A stretch of 12,248 bases of DNA, from the UHGV virus genome UHGV-0192790. One strand, written 5' to 3'. This DNA comes from a virus. The notes under the pieces were generated by a model, which was not told where the DNA came from, did no database searches, and saw only the letters and a list, made by a program, of their open reading frames with translations. Shown here in pieces: positions 810-9,430 of the stretch (position 1 is its first letter; the number at the start of each line of letters is the position of its first letter). Both the position numbers and the translations under genes were made by a program.

Positions 810-3731
810 CTACGCAACTCGTATAAACAGACCAATCATGACGCTGGCGGAACCGGCAGACCCCAGTCCATTCCCCGACAATGCCCGGTATGTGCCTGGC
901 ATTCCGCCACCGGAACCCTGAACATACACAGAAACACTGCCGTTGTATTTAACCCCGGTCCCGGTCGTACCGTAACACATCAATTCAACCGCACTCAGAC
1001 GTGACCCAGGATAGCTGTAACCTCGCTTTATTCTGCGGTCCGGGTCTGCGTTTCCCTGGCCGTTATATGCCGCCAGTATCAGGCTGCCAGTGCCGTACCA
1101 GGTATCTGTAGTTCCGGGAGCAAGGCCGGACAGAAGAGCAATAATGTCCTGCGAGGTTACCTTCAGTGATTCCCAGTCAATGAGATAACCATTTCCTGTG
1201 GTCCAGTAGCGGTTGTAATAAATGTGGCCATTAACACCATAGAAAATAATCGCCTTTGCTGTATTTATCGGACTCGGTGTGGCATATCTGGACTCAATCC
1301 ACCGAATACTGACAATCCCGCTGAACAGCACATTGGGTATAATTTTATTGCCACCCTCAACAAAATATTCTCCTGGCGTGACCTGTTTTACCCACACCAG
1401 AAAATCATTTTCTGAGTCAAAGCGGACAGTTTCGTTTGTGTTGAATATACGCCCAAAACCGAAGGCATCGGGAAGTGCCAGCCTGCCTTCCGTCCTGTCG
1501 CGAATATCACTCTGTGGCTCCATTGTGGCCGCCGCGCCCAGCGTGATATCGCCCCCTCCGAGCACGGAATGCCCGTTGATGCGCATAAAATCACAGGCAC
1601 GAAACTGTGGGATTTTTCCCCAGGCTGTAACGGATATGGCGGCGGCAACGTCGGCCACCGTGACGGCAGATGTCGCCCGGATTTGCAGGCGTCTGATGGC
1701 AGCCGTGGCTGCCGTCTGAGAAGTGGTGACCTTTGCCACAAAAGCAAAAAAATCACTCATGGCAAACGTATCAATGCCGTCGTAATTTGCCGTGAACAGG
1801 TCCGGGTAAGCACTCTGTATGGCGTCCAGAACCTGCCTGCCGTACCGTTCCACTTCTTCCTGTGTTTCCAGCACCCCAAAGCGCCACGGGGCCACAGAAA
1901 AACGGTCCTTATCAACAAAACGCCCTTCACCAGGCTCTGCCGGGTAATCCGTCTCGTTGTAATACGTCAGGAACCGTTTTTGTTCAGGTACAAACAACGC
2001 AAGCAGGCCAGCCCTGATGGTTTTCATGGCAGCGGTATATTCAGTTGCAGCAGTGGTATCTCCGGCAAGGTCAGCCAGTGTTTTCAGTGCACGTAAACCA
2101 GCATAAACCTCTGCGTTATCCTGACAAAAACACTGTGCATAAGCCCGGTCACCGGGTGCAAGATTGTGCTGGAATACGTTTACCAGACTGGCCACCGGAT
2201 TTATTTCAGCAACGATATTGAACTTTGCCACCTGTTTTATGATTTCCCAGCGGCTGGACCCGCCGATTCCGGCTGGCTCCTGTAACCAGGCACTGTCCGC
2301 AAATTCAGCAATGCAGGCGAACCAGAGCGCCGGGTAGCTGTCCGTGGAGTCCGGCGCAACGGGGGTATACAAATCCGGAGCCACATCCAGAAAAAAATAC
2401 TGCCATGCAGCCGGGATTCGGTTTGAGGGGCTTTTCAGGCACTCCAGCACAGCGGAGCCGGTCCGGACAAAATCTCCGGGGGCTACAGAGCTGATATCAG
2501 GCAACGTTTCCCCGGTGGTGCCCGCGATATTAACAAAAAAAAGCGTGCCGTTTATTGTCAGGCGCTGCCCGGCTTCATAACGGCAACCGGTCATAAACGG
2601 AACCACAAGCCCCAGTCTTAACGCCTTTTCGCAAATTGTCATACGGTCACTGAGGGAAAAGCATTTTCCTTCGCTTTCATACACGGCAAGAAACAGAAAA
2701 TACCAGTTGATACCACCGTTCGCATTCAGGTAGCGCCACAGCCCCTCGTAGCGCCCGCTGTTTATTCTCAACGCCTGTAGCTGAAGGTTCGCCTCTGTTA
2801 CCGAATAACGGGTTGATACTGAAAGGTGGTCATGAATGAATCCCTGCACATGCCCGGCCGCGTCTTTCGCCTCCTGAGCACTTATGGCGGCCGCGGCGGC
2901 ATTCTGACCGGTTTGTTTCGCATCCTCCGCAGTGGATTCCCTGTCCGCAGCCGTTGCAACCGCATTCTTTCTGGCTTCATCAGCAAAACGCTCTGCATCA
3001 TCACGCGCCGCTGCGGTTGCCTTCACATCCTGTGCGGTCTGCTGTGCACTTCCGGCAGCATTATCAGCGCAACTTTTCGCATTCTGCTCGCTCAGGGCGG
3101 CGTTATCCGCATTGTTTTTTGATTCCTCTGCGCTGGATGCTGAGTCATCTGCTGCCTGTTGAGCCTGCTTTACTGCATCTGTAACACTCTGCACACCCTG
3201 CTGTACCTGCCCGGCGTTCTGCTCAACTTCTGAGGCCAGCTGTGCAACGCGCTGTTTATCTTCGGCAACGGCTTCTGCATTCTGCTGTACGTTATCCGCC
3301 AGCATCTGGCAATCATCCTTAATCTTCTGCGCATCAGCTGCGTGTTGCCCGGACTGTCGTTCGCTTTCCGCTGCCGCTTCCGCGCTCTGCTGCGCCTGCG
3401 CCAACATTTCTTCGAAGCGTTTCACCACGTCGGGTTTGAGGTCGCCTTCATCAAGGGCAGTCAGAAAGTCGTTCAGCGTGCCGGGCTTTGAATCGTCGTA
3501 TACGGCAATGTCGCCAACACAGTACTCGTCGCGCCAGTCCTGTTTCAGATATACGCAGTATTTTCCGGTCTGCGCCTTAAAACAGTACTCGCCACAGTTT
3601 CCTGTCACCACATCAGCAACTGTGCGCATCACCACTTCTGACGTGTTTACCCGGGATTTCAGAATTATGTGGCATCCGGACATGGGGATGCCTGCGCCAT
3701 CAATCAGCGCACCTGATATCACTACAGACAT
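810..3731 (-). CDS. Tail fibre protein with lambda Stf-like N-terminal domain, long coiled-coil stalk and large C-terminal globular region
   Basis: 973 aa ORF. N-terminus MSVVISGALIDGAGIPMSGCHIILKSR...IAVYDDSKPGTLNDFL closely parallels the lambda side-tail-fibre N-terminus (MAVKISGVLKDGTGKP...ITVYEDSQPGTLNDFL). Residues about 110-300 are Ala/Gln/Glu/Asp-rich, typical of a fibre shaft. ATG at 3731, TAG at 810-812. Confidence 0.85.
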   Translation of the reverse strand: MSVVISGALIDGAGIPMSGCHIILKSRVNTSEVVMRTVADVVTGNCGEYCFKAQTGKYCVYLKQDWRDEYCVGDIAVYDDSKPGTLNDFLTALDEGDLKPDVVKRFEEMLAQAQQSAEAAAESERQSGQHAADAQKIKDDCQMLADNVQQNAEAVAEDKQRVAQLASEVEQNAGQVQQGVQSVTDAVKQAQQAADDSASSAEESKNNADNAALSEQNAKSCADNAAGSAQQTAQDVKATAAARDDAERFADEARKNAVATAADRESTAEDAKQTGQNAAAAAISAQEAKDAAGHVQGFIHDHLSVSTRYSVTEANLQLQALRINSGRYEGLWRYLNANGGINWYFLFLAVYESEGKCFSLSDRMTICEKALRLGLVVPFMTGCRYEAGQRLTINGTLFFVNIAGTTGETLPDISSVAPGDFVRTGSAVLECLKSPSNRIPAAWQYFFLDVAPDLYTPVAPDSTDSYPALWFACIAEFADSAWLQEPAGIGGSSRWEIIKQVAKFNIVAEINPVASLVNVFQHNLAPGDRAYAQCFCQDNAEVYAGLRALKTLADLAGDTTAATEYTAAMKTIRAGLLALFVPEQKRFLTYYNETDYPAEPGEGRFVDKDRFSVAPWRFGVLETQEEVERYGRQVLDAIQSAYPDLFTANYDGIDTFAMSDFFAFVAKVTTSQTAATAAIRRLQIRATSAVTVADVAAAISVTAWGKIPQFRACDFMRINGHSVLGGGDITLGAAATMEPQSDIRDRTEGRLALPDAFGFGRIFNTNETVRFDSENDFLVWVKQVTPGEYFVEGGNKIIPNVLFSGIVSIRWIESRYATPSPINTAKAIIFYGVNGHIYYNRYWTTGNGYLIDWESLKVTSQDIIALLSGLAPGTTDTWYGTGSLILAAYNGQGNADPDRRIKRGYSYPGSRLSAVELMCYGTTGTGVKYNGSVSVYVQGSGGGMPGTYRALSGNGLGSAGSASVMIGLFIRVA

Positions 3732-5682: not shown

Positions 5683-6305
5683 TTTTGAATCACCGTTGTT
5701 GCATAGGAATAAATAAAAGGGAGTTTTACATACTTCTGGTCAATGGCATCTTTCAGAAAATAGCCTATACCATCACCATATTCTGGTATCTGAATAGAAA
5801 AAACACTGTCCGATACAGTCACGCTCACATCAAAAGTATGCTGCAACGGCGGGTCTATTCCGTTTTTCCCATGAATGAACCGCGCCACACGGCGCTTTAA
5901 CCAGTCAATGCAGAAATGCGAACCGTCAGCCTTATAAAAATTCCACGTTAATATTCGTTTGAAATAATCATCAGGGACATACGATGCCTGCCCCGGAACG
6001 TAATTCCGCATTGCTGCGTACGGGATCGTATTGTATTCAATGGTATCGTATGCACCGCGCGCAATAGCCTCCTCTGAAACCTGTAGTAAAGGTCTTTCAA
6101 CACCGTAAATACCAAGTGCTATCCAGTCCAGCAACTGCCCGGTTATTGATTCCGATGTCCAGCATGGCAATGCCAGATTGTTGAGTGAATCGAGGTATTC
6201 CTGAGCAATTTCATTGTATGCATCAAAGAACGCAACAACATTCGGATCATCTCTGTACTGCACAAACGGATAAGCAGGAAGTATTTTCTCAGTCAGATAT
6301 TGCAT
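5679..6305 (-). CDS. Putative baseplate wedge / tail-fibre connector protein (gpI/gp48-like by position)
   Basis: ORF between the J-like gene and the first fibre gene; stop TGA overlaps the fibre start (ATGA). The track start at 6362 would overlap the J-like gene by 74 nt and gives an odd N-terminus (MAIPIPIFRRWHHRFRSIS), so I prefer the in-frame ATG at 6305 (MQYLTEKILPAYPF...). Neither start has a strong SD. Family call is positional only. Confidence 0.4.
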   Translation of the reverse strand: MQYLTEKILPAYPFVQYRDDPNVVAFFDAYNEIAQEYLDSLNNLALPCWTSESITGQLLDWIALGIYGVERPLLQVSEEAIARGAYDTIEYNTIPYAAMRNYVPGQASYVPDDYFKRILTWNFYKADGSHFCIDWLKRRVARFIHGKNGIDPPLQHTFDVSVTVSDSVFSIQIPEYGDGIGYFLKDAIDQKYVKLPFIYSYATTVIQK

Positions 6306-7515
6306 ACTTATTGACCTGAACCTGTGATGCCACCGTCGAAAAATAGGAATAGGTATCGCCATAAACTAGGCTTGTGTCTTTTGCCGGAAGAACAATATGA
6401 CCGTTAATACCAATGCTCACACTGATTGTTGAGATCAACGTCGCATCAACCAGCAATTTTACGGAGCTGGTAAAAATATCCTGGATTCGCAGCAGATTTA
6501 TCGGGTGTCCGACTTCAATAGAATTGATGTAATCAGCAACGTTTTGCTGCACAGCCATAGCAATACCCGCCGGATCAACATAATCATCAGATACAGTGTT
6601 CCAGGTGATTAGCACCATGACGTTTTGTGATGACGGGATAACGAACGGCACCTGATAAACATCTGGCGAAACGGTTATTGAAACCGTGCGTTTTTCCACT
6701 GCCGCACCAGATGGATTGCTAACATCGTTGGTCAGTTTCGAAATATCCGGTACAGATTTGTAAATAGCATAAGCCACATCATACGGATCACCGCCACCAA
6801 CAACCGCAACCCATTTCCCCAGCGACGACTGCCGGAAAGAAATCAGGTTTTCTCGCACACCGCTTACTGATTTGAGCATCGCTTTAAAGCAATCCGGTGT
6901 TCCCTGCACACCAAACATGCCGGACTCCATGACTTCGGCGCGGTAAGATGCCCACGTTTGCGCCTCCTGACCTGGCATCCCTGCGGTAAGGTTCGTGCAT
7001 TTTACAGGCTGATCTTTGGGTACCGATGTAATGACCTGCGTTACGGTTCCTTCCGGTACAGCCCATGAGCCTGACGTTGTGGCCACACAGTAGACTGGCT
7101 CAGTCTGCCCGCTTTCCGGCACCACCGTATCGCGGGAAACTGCATACTGGTAGTTGCCGTCACCGACAACAAATCCTTTAGGGATACCAAACCCCGGCAA
7201 CGCCTCAAACACCACGTATACCGCCGTATTTGTACTTAATCCCTTCTGTGCTCCATAAATGTTTCCGAGTTGCATCAGTAACGGAATATTTGCGCCGTAT
7301 GGGCTTACGGAGTTAATAAGGTCCACCCGCGCCTGGTCTATTAATGCCAGCGCCCCGACTGCCGTGCTGGCAAGGTCAGTAATAAGCCCCGCCGGAAGGT
7401 TGGCTGTATATCCAGGTACTTTTTCAGCAACTCTGATGATAAGATTTGCAAGCAAATCATTGGGTGGCGTAGGCTGCGCCCCCGCACTGGTCATAGTAAT
7501 TGGTATTTCTGACAT
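6289..7515 (-). CDS. Baseplate J-like protein (P2 gpJ / Mu gp47 / T4 gp6 family), tentative
   Basis: 408 aa. Position upstream of the gpI-position and fibre genes. Internal pattern ...YCVATTSGSWAVPEGTVTQVITSVP... resembles the baseplate J family signature. ATG at 7515 preceded by GGAG with a 5 nt spacer. Confidence 0.5.
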   Translation of the reverse strand: MSEIPITMTSAGAQPTPPNDLLANLIIRVAEKVPGYTANLPAGLITDLASTAVGALALIDQARVDLINSVSPYGANIPLLMQLGNIYGAQKGLSTNTAVYVVFEALPGFGIPKGFVVGDGNYQYAVSRDTVVPESGQTEPVYCVATTSGSWAVPEGTVTQVITSVPKDQPVKCTNLTAGMPGQEAQTWASYRAEVMESGMFGVQGTPDCFKAMLKSVSGVRENLISFRQSSLGKWVAVVGGGDPYDVAYAIYKSVPDISKLTNDVSNPSGAAVEKRTVSITVSPDVYQVPFVIPSSQNVMVLITWNTVSDDYVDPAGIAMAVQQNVADYINSIEVGHPINLLRIQDIFTSSVKLLVDATLISTISVSIGINGHIVLPAKDTSLVYGDTYSYFSTVASQVQVNKYAISD

Positions 7516-7527
7516 ATTTACTCCATT

Positions 7528-7553
7528 AAAAAACCCGCTTTCGCGGGTTTTTT
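7528..7553 (-). terminator. Rho-independent (bidirectional) terminator downstream of the inserted nuclease gene
   Basis: AAAAAACCCGC-TTTC-GCGGGTTTTTT: GC stem 7534-7538 / 7543-7547 with a 4 nt loop, flanked by an A6 run (7528-7533) and a T6 run (7548-7553). It reads as hairpin plus U-run on both strands. Lies 2 nt after the TAA stop (7556-7558) of the inserted gene and directly abuts the RBS of the J-like gene. Confidence 0.8.
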
Positions 7554-7555
7554 AC

Positions 7556-8716
7556 TTATTCAACCTCTTCTAAACTGCTCGCTCTGGACCCTCGGCGGAA
7601 ATTATCATCATTTTTAACATACTCGTATGAATCCAGAATCAAACCAGATATGCGAAGTATATCTTCCGGATTAGTTATATGTATCCTTTTACCATCCGTA
7701 TCAAGTCGAGCTCGTCTTATTTCATTCAACTGAACTTCACTAAGCGAAATAGGTAAAGTTATAAATGAAGATTTTTTATCATAAAATCTTAACAGCCATC
7801 TATTAGTTTTACCATTCAATAGTATACCAAAATATGACTCAGTATCTTTATATTCTATATTATCTTCTGTTTGTATGATTTGTTTTACCCTTTCAAATAG
7901 CTCCAATTCTTTGGCTGTGGTTATTATGTTGGGGTTTTCTTCATCAACAATGGCGTTATTAACTTGTGTATCCGTTGCATCATTTTCTTTAGTTTGCTCT
8001 ACCGGTTGTGTAGATAGCCCGGAAACCACCATTGCGCTAACAGCGCGCTCAACGGCCTGTTTAACTAATGGAGTCACGAACTCAAGAAATCTCTGATTAA
8101 GTTGTCTCTCAATATTTGAACGACTAGCAACATATCGAACAAACTCCAGATCAACTTCACGAAGACTAGAACTGATTGTTTTAGTAAATGAATTCAAATA
8201 AACACTTTCTTCAGCCAGTGTCCGTAAAGCCTCTGGTTTGAATTTATCATAACGAAAACGAAATAATTGTGTAATATCGGAGTGAGTTAGAGAATCCATT
8301 CTTATTTTTAAAAACGGCGTTGAAGCCATTATGTTTTTTTGTTTCAAATCCGTAAAAAAACGCCATTCAACACCATTTGTAATGGCTGATATAGTAACTT
8401 CCGGTGTTGAATTAAAATATCTTGATAGCTGTGGGCAGTGATTATCAATTTGTTCTGAAAACGATTTCGCCTCAATGAACATCACAGGAACATCATGACA
8501 AAATAAAGCGTAATCAACCCGTTCATTAGCCTTAACCCCGGGGAAGTCAGCACTATACTCAGCTTTGACTTTTCTTGGATCATACGGAGTAAAACCAAGA
8601 ATATCTAGTAATGGCATAATGAGTGCTTGTTTTGTCGTTTCTTCAGTTGTACAAAACACCCCCATTTTTGCAACATGCTCTGTGTGTATTTTTAACTTAT
8701 TTGCAAAATTTTCCAT
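7556..8716 (-). CDS. PD-(D/E)xK nuclease-family protein with HsdR-N-like N-terminal domain plus unknown C-terminal domain; candidate moron (defence or homing-type endonuclease)
   Basis: AT-rich ORF. N-terminal region ...QALIMPLLDILGF...ERVDYALFCHDVPVMFIEAKSF...CPQLSRYF...ISAITNGVEWRFF carries the hallmark D / E-x-K / Q...Y / TNG..W motifs of the type I restriction enzyme HsdR N-terminal nuclease fold. Preferred start is the ATG at 8716, preceded by GGAGG with an 8 nt spacer. The track start at 8731 has no SD and adds only MEETS. Stop TAA at 7556-7558. Confidence 0.7.
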   Translation of the reverse strand: MENFANKLKIHTEHVAKMGVFCTTEETTKQALIMPLLDILGFTPYDPRKVKAEYSADFPGVKANERVDYALFCHDVPVMFIEAKSFSEQIDNHCPQLSRYFNSTPEVTISAITNGVEWRFFTDLKQKNIMASTPFLKIRMDSLTHSDITQLFRFRYDKFKPEALRTLAEESVYLNSFTKTISSSLREVDLEFVRYVASRSNIERQLNQRFLEFVTPLVKQAVERAVSAMVVSGLSTQPVEQTKENDATDTQVNNAIVDEENPNIITTAKELELFERVKQIIQTEDNIEYKDTESYFGILLNGKTNRWLLRFYDKKSSFITLPISLSEVQLNEIRRARLDTDGKRIHITNPEDILRISGLILDSYEYVKNDDNFRRGSRASSLEEVE

Positions 8717-8744
8717 GCTTGTCTCCTCCATGGTAACAATATGT

Positions 8745-8774
8745 ATTTTGCAAATCCGAAATAATATATGTCAA
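8745..8774 (-). promoter_or_regulatory. Putative sigma70-type promoter for the inserted nuclease gene
   Basis: Perfect -35 hexamer TTGACA (minus strand, 8774-8769), then an 18 nt AT-rich spacer, then CAAAAT (8750-8745; 4/6 match to TATAAT). Sits about 30-60 nt upstream of the SD-preceded ATG at 8716. The -10 assignment is ambiguous. Confidence 0.4.
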
Positions 8775-8844
8775 TATGCTCCAGCTTAGAAAATTACTCG
8801 CCCCCCCTAAAATATCTCTCTACAGCACTCCAAACCAAGGTAAA

Positions 8845-8861
8845 AGTTTTATCATAAAACT
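8845..8861. promoter_or_regulatory. 17 bp perfect palindrome AGTTTTAT-C-ATAAAACT (candidate operator/protein-binding site)
   Basis: 8 bp arms are exact reverse complements around a single central base. Located between the stop of the 115 aa gene (8867-8869) and the promoter-like region of the inserted gene. Confidence 0.35.
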
Positions 8862-8866
8862 GTGAT

Positions 8867-9214
8867 TCATACCGGCACCTGCGTCCGGTAACTGGTCCCA
8901 TTAAAAAACACAACATCGATGTTATAGGTGGGGTTATCTGCTCCATCTACCTTTGAAATTGCCAGTGATGCAAAATACCCAGCAAACTGTTGCTGAACCA
9001 TGTTCACATAGTAGTCTGGGTAAATCTGCTGCACGATGCACTGCTGTGCAGGAATACCGTAATTCGCGTAAAACGGCGACTCCCCCAATCCCAGCTTTAA
9101 CGTCTGAATGAGCGTCGTCAGCCAGCCATAGGAGAAATCACCGTTGGCGTCAGATTCTACTGCAACCCATTTTTTGTTGCCGTTCGCGTCGGTGACGCGG
9201 CCCCATGTTCTCAT
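8867..9214 (-). CDS. Hypothetical protein; possibly baseplate wedge (gpW/gp25-like) by position and weak motif resemblance
   Basis: 115 aa (the same length as P2 gpW). Segment LIQTLKLGLGESPFYANYG loosely resembles the gp25/gpW G-x-R-x-x-x-x-x-F/Y-G region, but the EPR motif is not evident. ATG at 9214 overlaps the upstream stop (ATGA); GGGGG 5 nt upstream. Confidence 0.35.
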   Translation of the reverse strand: MRTWGRVTDANGNKKWVAVESDANGDFSYGWLTTLIQTLKLGLGESPFYANYGIPAQQCIVQQIYPDYYVNMVQQQFAGYFASLAISKVDGADNPTYNIDVVFFNGTSYRTQVPV

Positions 9215-9399
9215 CGTGCCCCCATCACTTTAACTAACTCTGTCAGTACTGGTGAAAAGGCAAATGCTAAAGCTACGAGTGCAGCGGTGTAATACATGCG
9301 TCGTAAGGTATTGCTTTTTGCCACTAATTTTAAGGCTTTCACAATCCAGTCTCCTCCGCTAAAATTAATCACGGAAGGCTTCCAAACATACGTAATCAT
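9211..9399 (-). CDS. Small predicted membrane protein (one C-terminal hydrophobic helix), function unknown
   Basis: The track ORF starts at a TTG (9414); the first ATG is at 9399. Hydrophobic stretch MYYTAALVALAFAFSPVLTELV. Stop overlaps the next start as ATGA, suggesting translational coupling. No convincing SD, so whether it is a real gene is uncertain. Confidence 0.3.
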   Translation of the reverse strand: MITYVWKPSVINFSGGDWIVKALKLVAKSNTLRRMYYTAALVALAFAFSPVLTELVKVMGAR

Positions 9400-9430
9400 C
9401 CCTTGCGTATTCAAGGTGAGAAACAGAAAA

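What the first reader, a model, noticed from the sequence alone, without database searches (positions are those of the whole stretch)
7556..8866. AT-rich single-gene insertion encoding an HsdR-N-like PD-(D/E)xK nuclease inside the baseplate operon
The segment from about 7556 to 8866 is visibly more AT-rich than the flanking tail genes. It carries its own promoter-like TTGACA, a strong GGAGG RBS, and a terminator immediately downstream, which is the organisation of a phage moron. The N-terminal domain of the encoded protein has the D73 / E87-x-K89 / Q101 / TNG-x-x-W signature of the type I restriction enzyme HsdR N-terminal nuclease fold, fused to an unrecognised C-terminal domain. A nuclease inserted between structural genes, with autonomous expression signals, is a strong candidate for a single-gene anti-phage defence or superinfection-exclusion factor. 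The alternative is a free-standing homing-type endonuclease, which also tend to be AT-rich and intergenic in phage structural clusters. I cannot tell from sequence alone whether this architecture is already catalogued.
Basis: partly seen in the sequence, partly recalled or inferred. Interest (0 to 1): 0.85.

Follow-up and report, generated by a model that had tools for sequence, protein, structure and literature searches.

The report
Prophage cargo gene encoding solitary nuclease
A foreign, AT-rich gene with its own promoter-like site and terminator sits between two baseplate genes of an E. coli prophage; it encodes a stand-alone restriction-type nuclease from a large, uncharacterised family that temperate phages of many phyla keep next to their repressor, so it is probably an anti-phage weapon, though this is untested.

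Summary
Window 7524-8855 is a 1.33-kb cassette with 35.8% GC (GC3 25.6%), against 49.7% for the rest of the window. It lies between a 115-aa baseplate-region gene and baseplate J of a Rac-like E. coli prophage.

The protein has three parts:
- an HsdR-type PD-(D/E)xK nuclease domain whose catalytic residues are conserved family-wide;
- a helical module and an acidic linker;
- a C-terminal "double-wing" domain (YdhG/YjbR/T4-MotA-like).

It has no helicase motor and no methyltransferase partner, so the RefSeq name "type I restriction endonuclease" is a misnomer.

The slot is a cargo hotspot. 25 of about 88-100 E. coli genomes with this tail module carry the nuclease. All seven other alleles inspected carry unknown genes plus an Ant antirepressor. 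No empty site was found.

Homologs (3280 representative clusters) sit in lysogeny modules of temperate phages of several phyla, often 10 nt behind the CI repressor (the lambda rexAB position). PADLOC v2 and the literature searched do not describe the family.

Best reading: a lysogen-expressed, restriction-like defence nuclease. Function is untested. Homing endonuclease is disfavoured.

The parts
7524..8855 (.). Variable cargo cassette (about 1.33 kb), AT-rich
   Evidence: Homology to alternative alleles L002-L004 ends at 7523-7535 and resumes at 8856. GC is 35.8% against 49.7% for the rest of the window.
7556..8716 (-). Nuclease gene, 386 aa (WP_000426901.1).
   Evidence: RBS position read. 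Homolog N-termini. Full-length match to PHROG 4225 'endonuclease', E 1.3e-147.
8297..8716 (-). N-terminal HsdR-type PD-(D/E)xK nuclease domain (aa 1-140). Catalytic codons: D68 = 8513-8515, E82 = 8471-8473, K84 = 8465-8467.
8012..8296 (-). Helical middle module (aa 141-235)
   Evidence: AlphaFold2 model with mean pLDDT 92.0. Found together with the nuclease domain in 138 of 150 family representatives.
7931..8011 (-). Disordered acidic linker (aa 236-262, net charge -6)
   Evidence: pLDDT below 50 for residues 236-252. 11% identity among distant members.
7592..7930 (-). C-terminal double-wing (CyaY/YdhG/YjbR/MotA-CTD-like) domain (aa 263-375)
8723..8729 (-). Ribosome-binding site GGAGGAG, 6 nt upstream of ATG 8716
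   Evidence: Read.
8745..8774 (-). Sigma-70 promoter-like site TTGACA-18 nt-CAAAAT
   Evidence: 10 of 12 matches. A consensus match only; not shown to be active.
7527..7554 (-). Intrinsic terminator (symmetrical, A-run/T-run on both sides) at the 3' end of the cassette, directly upstream of the RBS of baseplate J
   Evidence: dG -18.3 kcal/mol, z -4.93; inverted repeat I1, 12 nt, 100% complementary.
8867..9214 (-). Upstream flank: 115-aa baseplate-region gene (phrog_7986, unknown function; in the position of a gpW/gp25-type wedge gene)
   Evidence: Conserved in all alleles.
6289..7515 (-). Downstream flank: baseplate J/gp47-family gene
   Evidence: Pfam Baseplate_J E 7.1e-8. PHROG 6 baseplate wedge subunit, E 2.3e-37.

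Best explanation
The cassette is a moron-type cargo gene in a variable accessory slot of a Rac-like E. coli prophage tail module. It encodes a stand-alone, restriction-like DNA endonuclease that the prophage expresses during lysogeny to attack incoming foreign DNA (other phages or mobile elements). Proposed mechanism: the sigma-70-type promoter drives transcription in the lysogen, and the cassette's terminator stops that transcript from running into baseplate J. During lytic growth the late tail transcript must read through. The protein is bipartite, like FokI, DpnI or PvuRts1I: the C-terminal double-wing domain selects the target and the N-terminal HsdR-type PD-(D/E)xK domain cuts. There is no methyltransferase and no immunity partner, so the host genome must be spared through target specificity, most likely a DNA modification or other feature absent from host DNA (type IV-like logic). 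Less likely, the nuclease is kept inactive until infection. What is shown: foreign composition, cassette limits, hotspot polymorphism, nuclease fold with an intact and conserved catalytic motif, the double-wing fold, absence of a helicase motor and of a conserved methyltransferase neighbour, and the lysogeny-module context of homologs. What is inferred: expression in lysogens, nuclease activity, DNA binding by the C-terminal domain, the nature of the target, and the anti-phage role.
Against: There are no functional data at all. The family is absent from PADLOC-DB v2.0, and no paper in the searchable library describes it. The promoter is only a consensus match in AT-rich DNA, where such matches are frequent. 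The C-terminal domain has net charge -1 and is not obviously basic. Its best structural match is a YdhG/frataxin-like protein rather than a proven DNA binder, so it may sense a protein or small molecule instead of DNA. The family is unusually well conserved for a defence gene (52-71% identity across Gamma- and Betaproteobacteria). Some copies lie among housekeeping genes with no phage context. The relative orientation of the two domains is uncertain (pTM 0.61).
Confidence: 0.6

Rival explanations
1. Abortive-infection or sensor-gated nuclease. The protein is held inactive in the lysogen, for example by the acidic linker or by the C-terminal domain acting as a sensor. A phage protein or metabolite bound by the C-terminal domain switches it on, and it then degrades DNA indiscriminately and kills the infected cell.
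For: The gene is solitary, with no methyltransferase or immunity gene. The C-terminal domain best matches ligand- or protein-binding YdhG/frataxin-like folds and is not basic. The acidic disordered linker (net charge -6) could mimic DNA. The position behind cI matches lambda RexAB and BstA, which are abortive-infection systems (own knowledge; BstA in PMC8585504, listed).
Against: Relatives replace the C-terminal domain with DUF4357/RAMA and possibly SeqA-C-type domains. These are associated with restriction enzymes, methylases and methylated DNA, which points to direct DNA reading rather than protein sensing. There is no evidence of toxicity.
Confidence: 0.17
2. The nuclease serves the phage's own life cycle or counter-defence, not exclusion of competitors. 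Examples: degrading host DNA, processing phage DNA at induction, or destroying a host or rival element's nucleic acid.
For: It is consistently linked to the repressor/integrase/antirepressor regulatory modules. In E. coli it alternates with Ant antirepressor cargo. Sequence conservation is high across orders.
Against: It is dispensable: about three quarters of the E. coli genomes with this tail module lack it at this slot. It occupies unrelated slots in different phages and persists as an isolated gene in chromosomes without phage genes. Co-transcription with cI implies expression when the phage is dormant.
Confidence: 0.1
3. Free-standing homing endonuclease that cuts cassette-free alleles of the W-J junction and spreads by repair.
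For: It is AT-rich and intergenic within a conserved structural cluster. The cassette is nearly identical (at least 99.4%) in carriers whose flanks differ by up to 3%, as expected for a recently spreading element. PD-(D/E)xK homing enzymes do exist (own knowledge).
Against: No empty site was found in 88 genomes; the slot always held other cargo of more than about 880 bp. Homologs lie at unrelated positions (behind cI, after Q, next to integrase, solitary), not next to one conserved target gene. The arrangement implying co-transcription with the repressor in lysogeny does not fit a homing life style.
Confidence: 0.04
4. Decaying or neutral passenger gene with no current function.
For: One E. 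coli homolog is interrupted by IS1 (H140). Many database entries are fragments.
Against: The reading frame is intact and at least 99.4% conserved in all 25 carriers. The catalytic motif is invariant across a very large family. The full three-module architecture is kept in 121 of 150 representatives.
Confidence: 0.04

Closest known systems
HsdR subunit of type I restriction-modification enzymes (e.g. EcoR124I; Vibrio vulnificus HsdR fragment 3h1t)
   Different: No SF2 translocase motor, no C-terminal methylase-binding domain, and no hsdM/hsdS genes. 386 aa instead of about 800-1100. NCBIfam HsdR model scores 19 bits against a cut-off of 729. The RefSeq name 'type I restriction endonuclease' is therefore misleading.
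Bipartite single-chain restriction enzymes with separate cleavage and reader domains: type IIS FokI, type IIM DpnI, type IV PvuRts1I/AbaSI; nuclease domains of type IIG/IIL BpuSI and DrdV
   Different: The reader domain is a double-wing/CyaY-like fold, not SRA, winged helix or the FokI recognition domain. Target and activity are unknown. There is an extra helical module and an acidic linker.
Double-wing DNA-binding domains: T4 MotA C-terminal domain, E. coli YjbR/MmcQ (PF04237), DUF1801/YdhG; more distantly McrB-N
   Different: No sequence-level match to those Pfam families. Net charge -1. DNA binding has not been shown.
Lysogen-expressed exclusion or defence genes next to the prophage repressor or in late-operon accessory regions: lambda rexAB, P22 sieA/sieB and the immI (ant) region, BTP1 bstA
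   Same: Genomic logic. Homologs lie directly behind cI on the same strand. In E. coli the slot alternates with an Ant antirepressor inside the structural gene cluster, which recalls P22 immI, where ant and sieA lie next to the tailspike gene (own knowledge).
   Different: No sequence or fold relationship. Those proteins are membrane, ion-channel or DNA-binding abortive-infection factors, not PD-(D/E)xK nucleases.
Classical phage morons (HK97/lambda; Juhala, Hendrix and colleagues)
   Same: A single gene with promoter-like and terminator signals and deviant base composition, sitting between late structural genes.
   Different: No related genome shows the two flanking genes directly adjacent. 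The site is a multi-allelic cargo hotspot rather than a simple presence/absence insertion.

Membership tests
Type I restriction enzyme HsdR subunit (the RefSeq product name) | N-terminal PD-(D/E)xK nuclease domain of the HSDR_N type | tested here: met
Type I restriction enzyme HsdR subunit (the RefSeq product name) | SF2 ATP-dependent translocase motor (ResIII/DEAD plus helicase C) and overall length of about 800-1100 aa | tested here: not met
   386 aa. No helicase family in Pfam. NCBIfam HsdR equivalog scores 19 bits against a cut-off of 729. The model shows only nuclease, helical and double-wing modules.
Type I restriction enzyme HsdR subunit (the RefSeq product name) | Encoded with hsdM and hsdS | tested here: not met
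   The window holds only tail genes. No conserved partner and no methyltransferase-motif ORF within 2.5 kb in 80 loci (the motif scan is crude).
Phage moron | Base composition different from the surrounding phage genes | tested here: met
   GC 35.8% against 49.7%; GC3 25.6% against 48-58%.
Phage moron | Own promoter upstream and terminator downstream | tested here: inconclusive
   The terminator is strong (z -4.93). The promoter is a 10-of-12 consensus match in a region where matches are frequent (10 found, 5.2 expected). No transcript data.
Phage moron | Absent from related phages, in which the two flanking genes are adjacent | tested here: not met
   The gene is absent from about three quarters of related prophages, but other cargo always replaces it. 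No place among 88 genomes joins the two flanks within about 880 bp.
Phage moron | Expressed from the repressed prophage | not testable with these tools
   Only indirect evidence: homologs lie 10 nt behind cI on the same strand.
Type IV / modification-dependent restriction endonuclease | Nuclease without a cognate methyltransferase | tested here: met
   (80 loci), and the window itself.
Type IV / modification-dependent restriction endonuclease | A domain that reads modified DNA | tested here: inconclusive
   The C-terminal domain has the double-wing fold. Some relatives carry DUF4357 (one also weakly RAMA) or a weak SeqA-C match in its place. No direct evidence of binding.
Type IV / modification-dependent restriction endonuclease | Cleavage that depends on a base modification | not testable with these tools
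   Needs biochemistry.
Free-standing homing endonuclease | Presence/absence polymorphism with an intact, cleavable empty site | tested here: not met
   No empty site in 88 genomes.
Free-standing homing endonuclease | Homologs associated with one conserved target gene | tested here: not met
   Homologs lie behind cI, after Q, beside integrase, in another tail module, or alone.
Any defence family catalogued in PADLOC-DB v2.0.0 (2023) | Profile match to a catalogued defence protein | tested here: not met
   No hit at E up to 1 for the window protein. Distant members give only weak nuclease-domain cross-hits to type IIG REase-MTase, Cas4 and mad2. Later catalogues could not be searched.
PHROG 4225 ('endonuclease') | Full-length profile match | tested here: met
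   E 1.3e-147, residues 6-375 on profile positions 1-357 of 357. The family name is an annotation, not a tested function.

The most novel reading that the evidence does not exclude
This is the E. coli representative of a very large, multi-phylum family of single-protein immune nucleases that no defence catalogue I could search lists. Temperate phages would place it under repressor-linked, lysogenic transcription. It is built as a fixed HsdR-type nuclease-plus-helical chassis with an exchangeable C-terminal reader (double-wing, DUF4357/RAMA, possibly SeqA-C-like). If so, it would be a new class of type IV-like restriction enzyme, with the double-wing fold as a new DNA (or modification) reader. 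The W-J slot of Rac-like prophages would then be an immI-like hotspot where defence and antirepressor cargo alternate.
Probability: 0.4. Interest if true: 0.65.

Novelty: new variant of a known kind. Interest (0 to 1): 0.5.

Why it matters
If the inference holds, a family present in thousands of sequence clusters would become an experimentally tractable, one-gene defence system. The family spans temperate phages of Proteobacteria, Firmicutes, Bacteroidota, Actinobacteria and Fusobacteria. It is currently mislabelled 'type I restriction endonuclease' and is absent from PADLOC v2. The domain logic (constant nuclease chassis, swappable reader) makes a testable prediction about how solitary nucleases avoid self-DNA. 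The double-wing reader could be a new DNA-recognition module for enzyme engineering. The locus also documents a cargo hotspot inside a baseplate operon where a nuclease and an antirepressor alternate. This is useful for prophage annotation and for mining the other unknown genes in that slot. Single-gene PD-(D/E)xK defence nucleases are now found frequently, so the advance would be incremental rather than conceptual.

Tried and rejected
- A first AlphaFold2 run with a shallow alignment (35 sequences, at least 62% identity) gave pLDDT 60.6, and its Foldseek hits were not usable (E at least 0.09). It was replaced by a 94-sequence alignment (pLDDT 92.0).
- Sequence searches of the PDB with both profiles found nothing meaningful.
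The viral structure library returned only one family member.
- Literature: searches for HsdR_N/PF04313/DUF450 with prophage or defence terms, and for the RefSeq accession, found no description.
- The DefensePredictor paper reports 14 new PD-(D/E)xK defence proteins from E. coli. Neither the accessions nor four invariant peptides of this protein occur in its stored supplementary text, but those files are truncated. Two other discovery papers do not mention HsdR_N; one has no stored supplements. Brenes & Laub 2025 is not held. Prior experimental description therefore cannot be excluded.
- Empty-site search with an artificial J|115-aa-gene junction: none found.
- Flanking repeats that might mark a site-specific insertion: only a 12-nt direct repeat whose right copy is 42 nt inside the 115-aa gene. 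Judged probably chance.
- Rfam and tRNA scans of the window were empty.
- The upstream spacer 8775-8875 has no significant RNA structure (z +0.64).
- Pfam gave no hit for the putative Mu-like transposase. PHROGs confirmed it (phrog_310).
- The 115-aa flank could not be shown to be a gpW/gp25 homolog (no Pfam hit; PHROG of unknown function). Its 'wedge-like' label rests on synteny only.
Full report
**1. The observation**

The window is a run of minus-strand phage tail genes. They include a tail-fibre protein with a prophage tail-fibre N-terminal domain, a tail-fibre assembly protein and baseplate J.

Base composition drops to 0.31-0.40 GC across 7501-8850, against 0.45-0.56 on either side. The cassette 7524-8855 is 35.8% GC and the rest of the window 49.7%. 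Third-codon-position GC is 25.6% for the gene, against 48-58% for its neighbours.

Three things show that translation starts at the second ATG (8716, 386 aa):
- the GGAGGAG at 8729-8723 overlaps the first ATG and lies 6 nt before the second;
- RefSeq annotates that start;
- all homologs begin there.

Residue numbers below use the 386-aa protein.

The TTGACA-18-CAAAAT site at 8774..8745 is the best promoter-like match in the region, at 10 of 12. It is still only a consensus match in AT-rich DNA: 10 sites were found against 5.2 expected.

The terminator at 7527-7554 is convincing. It is a perfect 12-bp stem flanked by A and T runs, with dG -18.3 kcal/mol, z = -4.9 and 0 of 200 shuffles folding as well. 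It abuts the GGAG and ATG of baseplate J.

**2. A cargo hotspot, not a simple insertion**

The window matches prophages in 100 of 5426 complete E. coli genomes. 25 of them carry this gene at this place. The tail module resembles Escherichia phage Rac-SA53.

Against the other alleles, similarity stops at 7523-7535 and resumes at 8856. The foreign segment is therefore 7524-8855.

In every other allele I inspected, the slot holds different genes, most of them on the opposite strand. These were an AntA/AntB antirepressor, or a fragment of one, together with one of the following:
- an unknown 179-182-aa protein;
- that protein plus a 154-aa protein;
- 163-aa and 227-aa proteins;
- an LprI-like protein.

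None of these matches PADLOC.

A search with an artificial junction of the two flanks found no genome among 88 in which they lie within about 880 bp of each other. No empty site exists in this collection.

The cassette is at least 99.4% identical in all 25 carriers. The first 400 nt of J differ by up to 3% in the same genomes. This points to recent spread by recombination.

**3. The protein**

Family scans gave the following:
- Pfam: HSDR_N (E 5.7e-14) and HSDR_N_2 (E 2.5e-9) over residues 25-133, and nothing else.
- PHROGs: full-length match to family 4225, 'endonuclease' (E 1.3e-147).
- NCBIfam: the HsdR equivalog reaches 19 bits against a cut-off of 729.
- PADLOC-DB v2: no hit.

An exhaustive search found 3280 representative clusters (50% identity level) at E up to 0.001, and 257 at E up to 1e-30. 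Of the best 150, 121 have all three modules.

In an alignment of 94 members at 25-74% identity, E25, D68, K84, Y100 and G115 are invariant. E82, Q96, T113 and N114 are at least 90% conserved. The E...D...E-x-K...Q catalytic signature is thus under selection across the family.

With that alignment AlphaFold2 gives mean pLDDT 92.0. The model has these parts:
- nuclease domain, residues 1-140;
- helical module, 141-235;
- disordered acidic linker, 236-262 (net charge -6);
- compact alpha/beta domain, 263-375.

About eight of the 150 representatives keep the nuclease and helical modules but have a different C-terminal domain of at least 138 residues. Two of these carry DUF4357 (63.8 and 70.4 bits, cut-off 38.4), one of them also with a weak RAMA match. 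A third has a weak match to the SeqA C-terminal domain that falls below the Pfam threshold.

I read this as a constant cutting chassis with an exchangeable target reader. Two cautions apply. The double-wing domain here has net charge -1. Its conserved residues (T266, T267, E270, D291, Y295, R310) could equally form a pocket for a base, a metabolite or a protein.

**4. Where the family lives**

Among 80 species-level loci from Gamma- and Betaproteobacteria (52-71% identity), the only recurrent neighbours are phage regulatory genes.

- In 22 loci an HTH_3 + Peptidase_S24 repressor lies upstream, in most of them 10-45 nt away on the same strand. In Kluyvera, Providencia, an Orbaceae bacterium and Haemophilus, cro and the replication genes diverge from it. 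This is the arrangement of lambda cI-rexAB.
- In ten transposable-phage prophages the gene lies on the strand opposite the early genes. In the two examined closely it follows a repressor-type HTH gene or an unidentified ORF.
- In ten Pasteurellaceae loci a Bro-N/P22-antirepressor gene follows it. In Mannheimia the pair lies between a Q-like gene and the lysis genes. In Avibacterium it lies inside a tail/baseplate module. The Avibacterium case is an independent parallel to the window.
- In E. coli a 78%-identical copy lies just after antiterminator Q, in the opposite orientation.

Deposited temperate phages carry homologs at 30-67% identity. They are from Klebsiella, Clostridium, Enterococcus, Lacticaseibacillus, Streptococcus, Porphyromonas, Corynebacterium, Fusobacterium and Pseudomonas. 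Three were examined:
- pneumococcal phage IPP25: repressor, ImmA-like M78 protease, this gene, integrase;
- Klebsiella KpF5: 'Rac prophage repressor', then this gene;
- a Clostridium phage: HTH regulators, then this gene.

Some copies stand alone among housekeeping genes, or with only a short XRE-type HTH gene. No methyltransferase-like ORF lies within 2.5 kb in any of the 80 loci, though the motif scan was crude. In E. coli the gene is rare: 33 of 5426 genomes.

**5. How it most likely works**

The evidence fits a lysogen-expressed, solitary, restriction-like nuclease that protects the lysogen, and so the prophage, from incoming DNA. The pieces are a sporadic, horizontally moving, compositionally foreign gene, its placement where prophages put genes read together with the repressor, an intact nuclease site, a swappable second domain, and no methylase or immunity partner.

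In the window the gene has lost the link to cI. It carries its own promoter-like site and a terminator that insulates baseplate J. Late transcription must read through that terminator.

How host DNA is spared is unknown. I favour target selection by the C-terminal domain, as in type IV or type IIM enzymes. A sensor-gated, abortive-infection mode is the main rival. Roles in the phage's own cycle, homing, or decay are less likely, for the reasons given under the rivals.

I put 0.6 on the defence-nuclease reading as a whole. The specific 'reader of a DNA modification' step gets about 0.25-0.3.

**6. Comparison with known systems**

It is not a type I HsdR: there is no motor, no HsdM/S, and it is 386 aa long. 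It resembles bipartite single-chain enzymes (FokI, DpnI, PvuRts1I) in design, and BpuSI and DrdV in its nuclease domain. Its reader domain is of a kind not known in restriction enzymes.

It shares genomic logic, but no homology, with rexAB, sieA/sieB, bstA and the P22 immI region.

It meets the compositional criterion of a moron, and the signal criteria at sequence level. It fails the 'flanks adjacent elsewhere' criterion, because the slot was never found empty.

**7. Novelty and verdict**

Databases know the family only as a domain hit and a generic name. I found no functional description, but my literature and catalogue coverage is incomplete (see the section on what was tried).

I rate it a new variant of a known kind: prophage-borne single-gene nuclease defence, type IV-like. 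It is a solid, testable candidate of moderate interest, because such nucleases are now discovered often.

Four corrections apply: the start codon, the nature of the slot, the identity of the C-terminal domain, and the rejection of the homing alternative.

Noticed in passing
window 9215-9400: A second, smaller variable spot lies between the 115-aa gene and the 237-aa baseplate gene. Similarity to other alleles breaks at 9214-9228 and resumes at 9326-9401, and the spacer length differs among alleles. It contains a 67-aa TTG-start ORF (9211-9414) with a hydrophobic C-terminal stretch.
   Followed up: no
window 7523-7534 and 8898-8909: An exact 12-nt direct repeat, CCATTAAAAAAC. The left copy coincides with the left breakpoint of the cassette. 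The right copy lies 42 nt inside the 115-aa gene, not at the right breakpoint. Possibly a recombination footprint, possibly chance.
   Followed up: partly
window 8699-8709 and 8745-8755: A perfect 11-nt inverted repeat, ATTTGCAAAAT / ATTTTGCAAAT, brackets the -10 box and the start codon of the nuclease gene. It could be an operator for a repressor.
   Followed up: no
L002 3538-4077, L006 4414-5445, L008 4407-5617, L003 3559-4305 (same slot in other E. coli prophages): The alternative cargo genes have no Pfam or PADLOC match. They are proteins of 179-182, 154, 163 and 227 aa and an LprI-like protein of 248 aa, always found with an AntA antirepressor or a fragment of one. They are further uncharacterised accessory genes in the same hotspot.
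   Followed up: partly
window 7556-8716 compared with 7124-7523, across the 25 carrier genomes: The nuclease gene is at least 99.4% identical in all carriers, while the adjacent J 5' end is only 97-100% identical in the same genomes. The cassette seems to have spread recently among already diverged prophages.
   Followed up: partly
window 810-3731: The 973-aa tail-fibre protein has a prophage tail-fibre N-terminal domain and a sub-threshold match to an MGH1-like glycoside hydrolase domain (25.2 bits, cut-off 27). The closest cassette-carrying genome (L001) matches the window only in short patches between 270 and 3907 and carries other genes there, so the distal tail-fibre region is mosaic.
   Followed up: no
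PP818812.1 (H31); CP026085.1 and CM135829.1 (H80, H82; L007): A record named 'Actinobacillus phage vB_Apl-pPE4' is 94.5% identical to this E. coli tail module. Two 4.83-Mb assemblies labelled 'DH5alpha' carry an apparently complete tail module of this prophage. The host or strain labels look doubtful.
   Followed up: no
NZ_OZ547461.1 4421875-4423354 (H140): A divergent E. coli homolog (about 72% nt identity) is split by an IS1A element.
   Followed up: no
L049 (Avibacterium paragallinarum) 5986-8243: An independent case of the same nuclease gene, followed by a Bro-N antirepressor, inserted inside a tail/baseplate module between tail genes and a baseplate wedge gene. This suggests that nuclease and Ant cargo travel together into structural operons.
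   Followed up: partly
L021 5582-7164 and L028 5578-7164 (Raoultella, Klebsiella): A two-gene islet, a short XRE-type HTH (124-130 aa) followed by the nuclease, sits among non-phage genes. The HTH may be a dedicated regulator that moves with the nuclease, not only a prophage repressor.
   Followed up: partly
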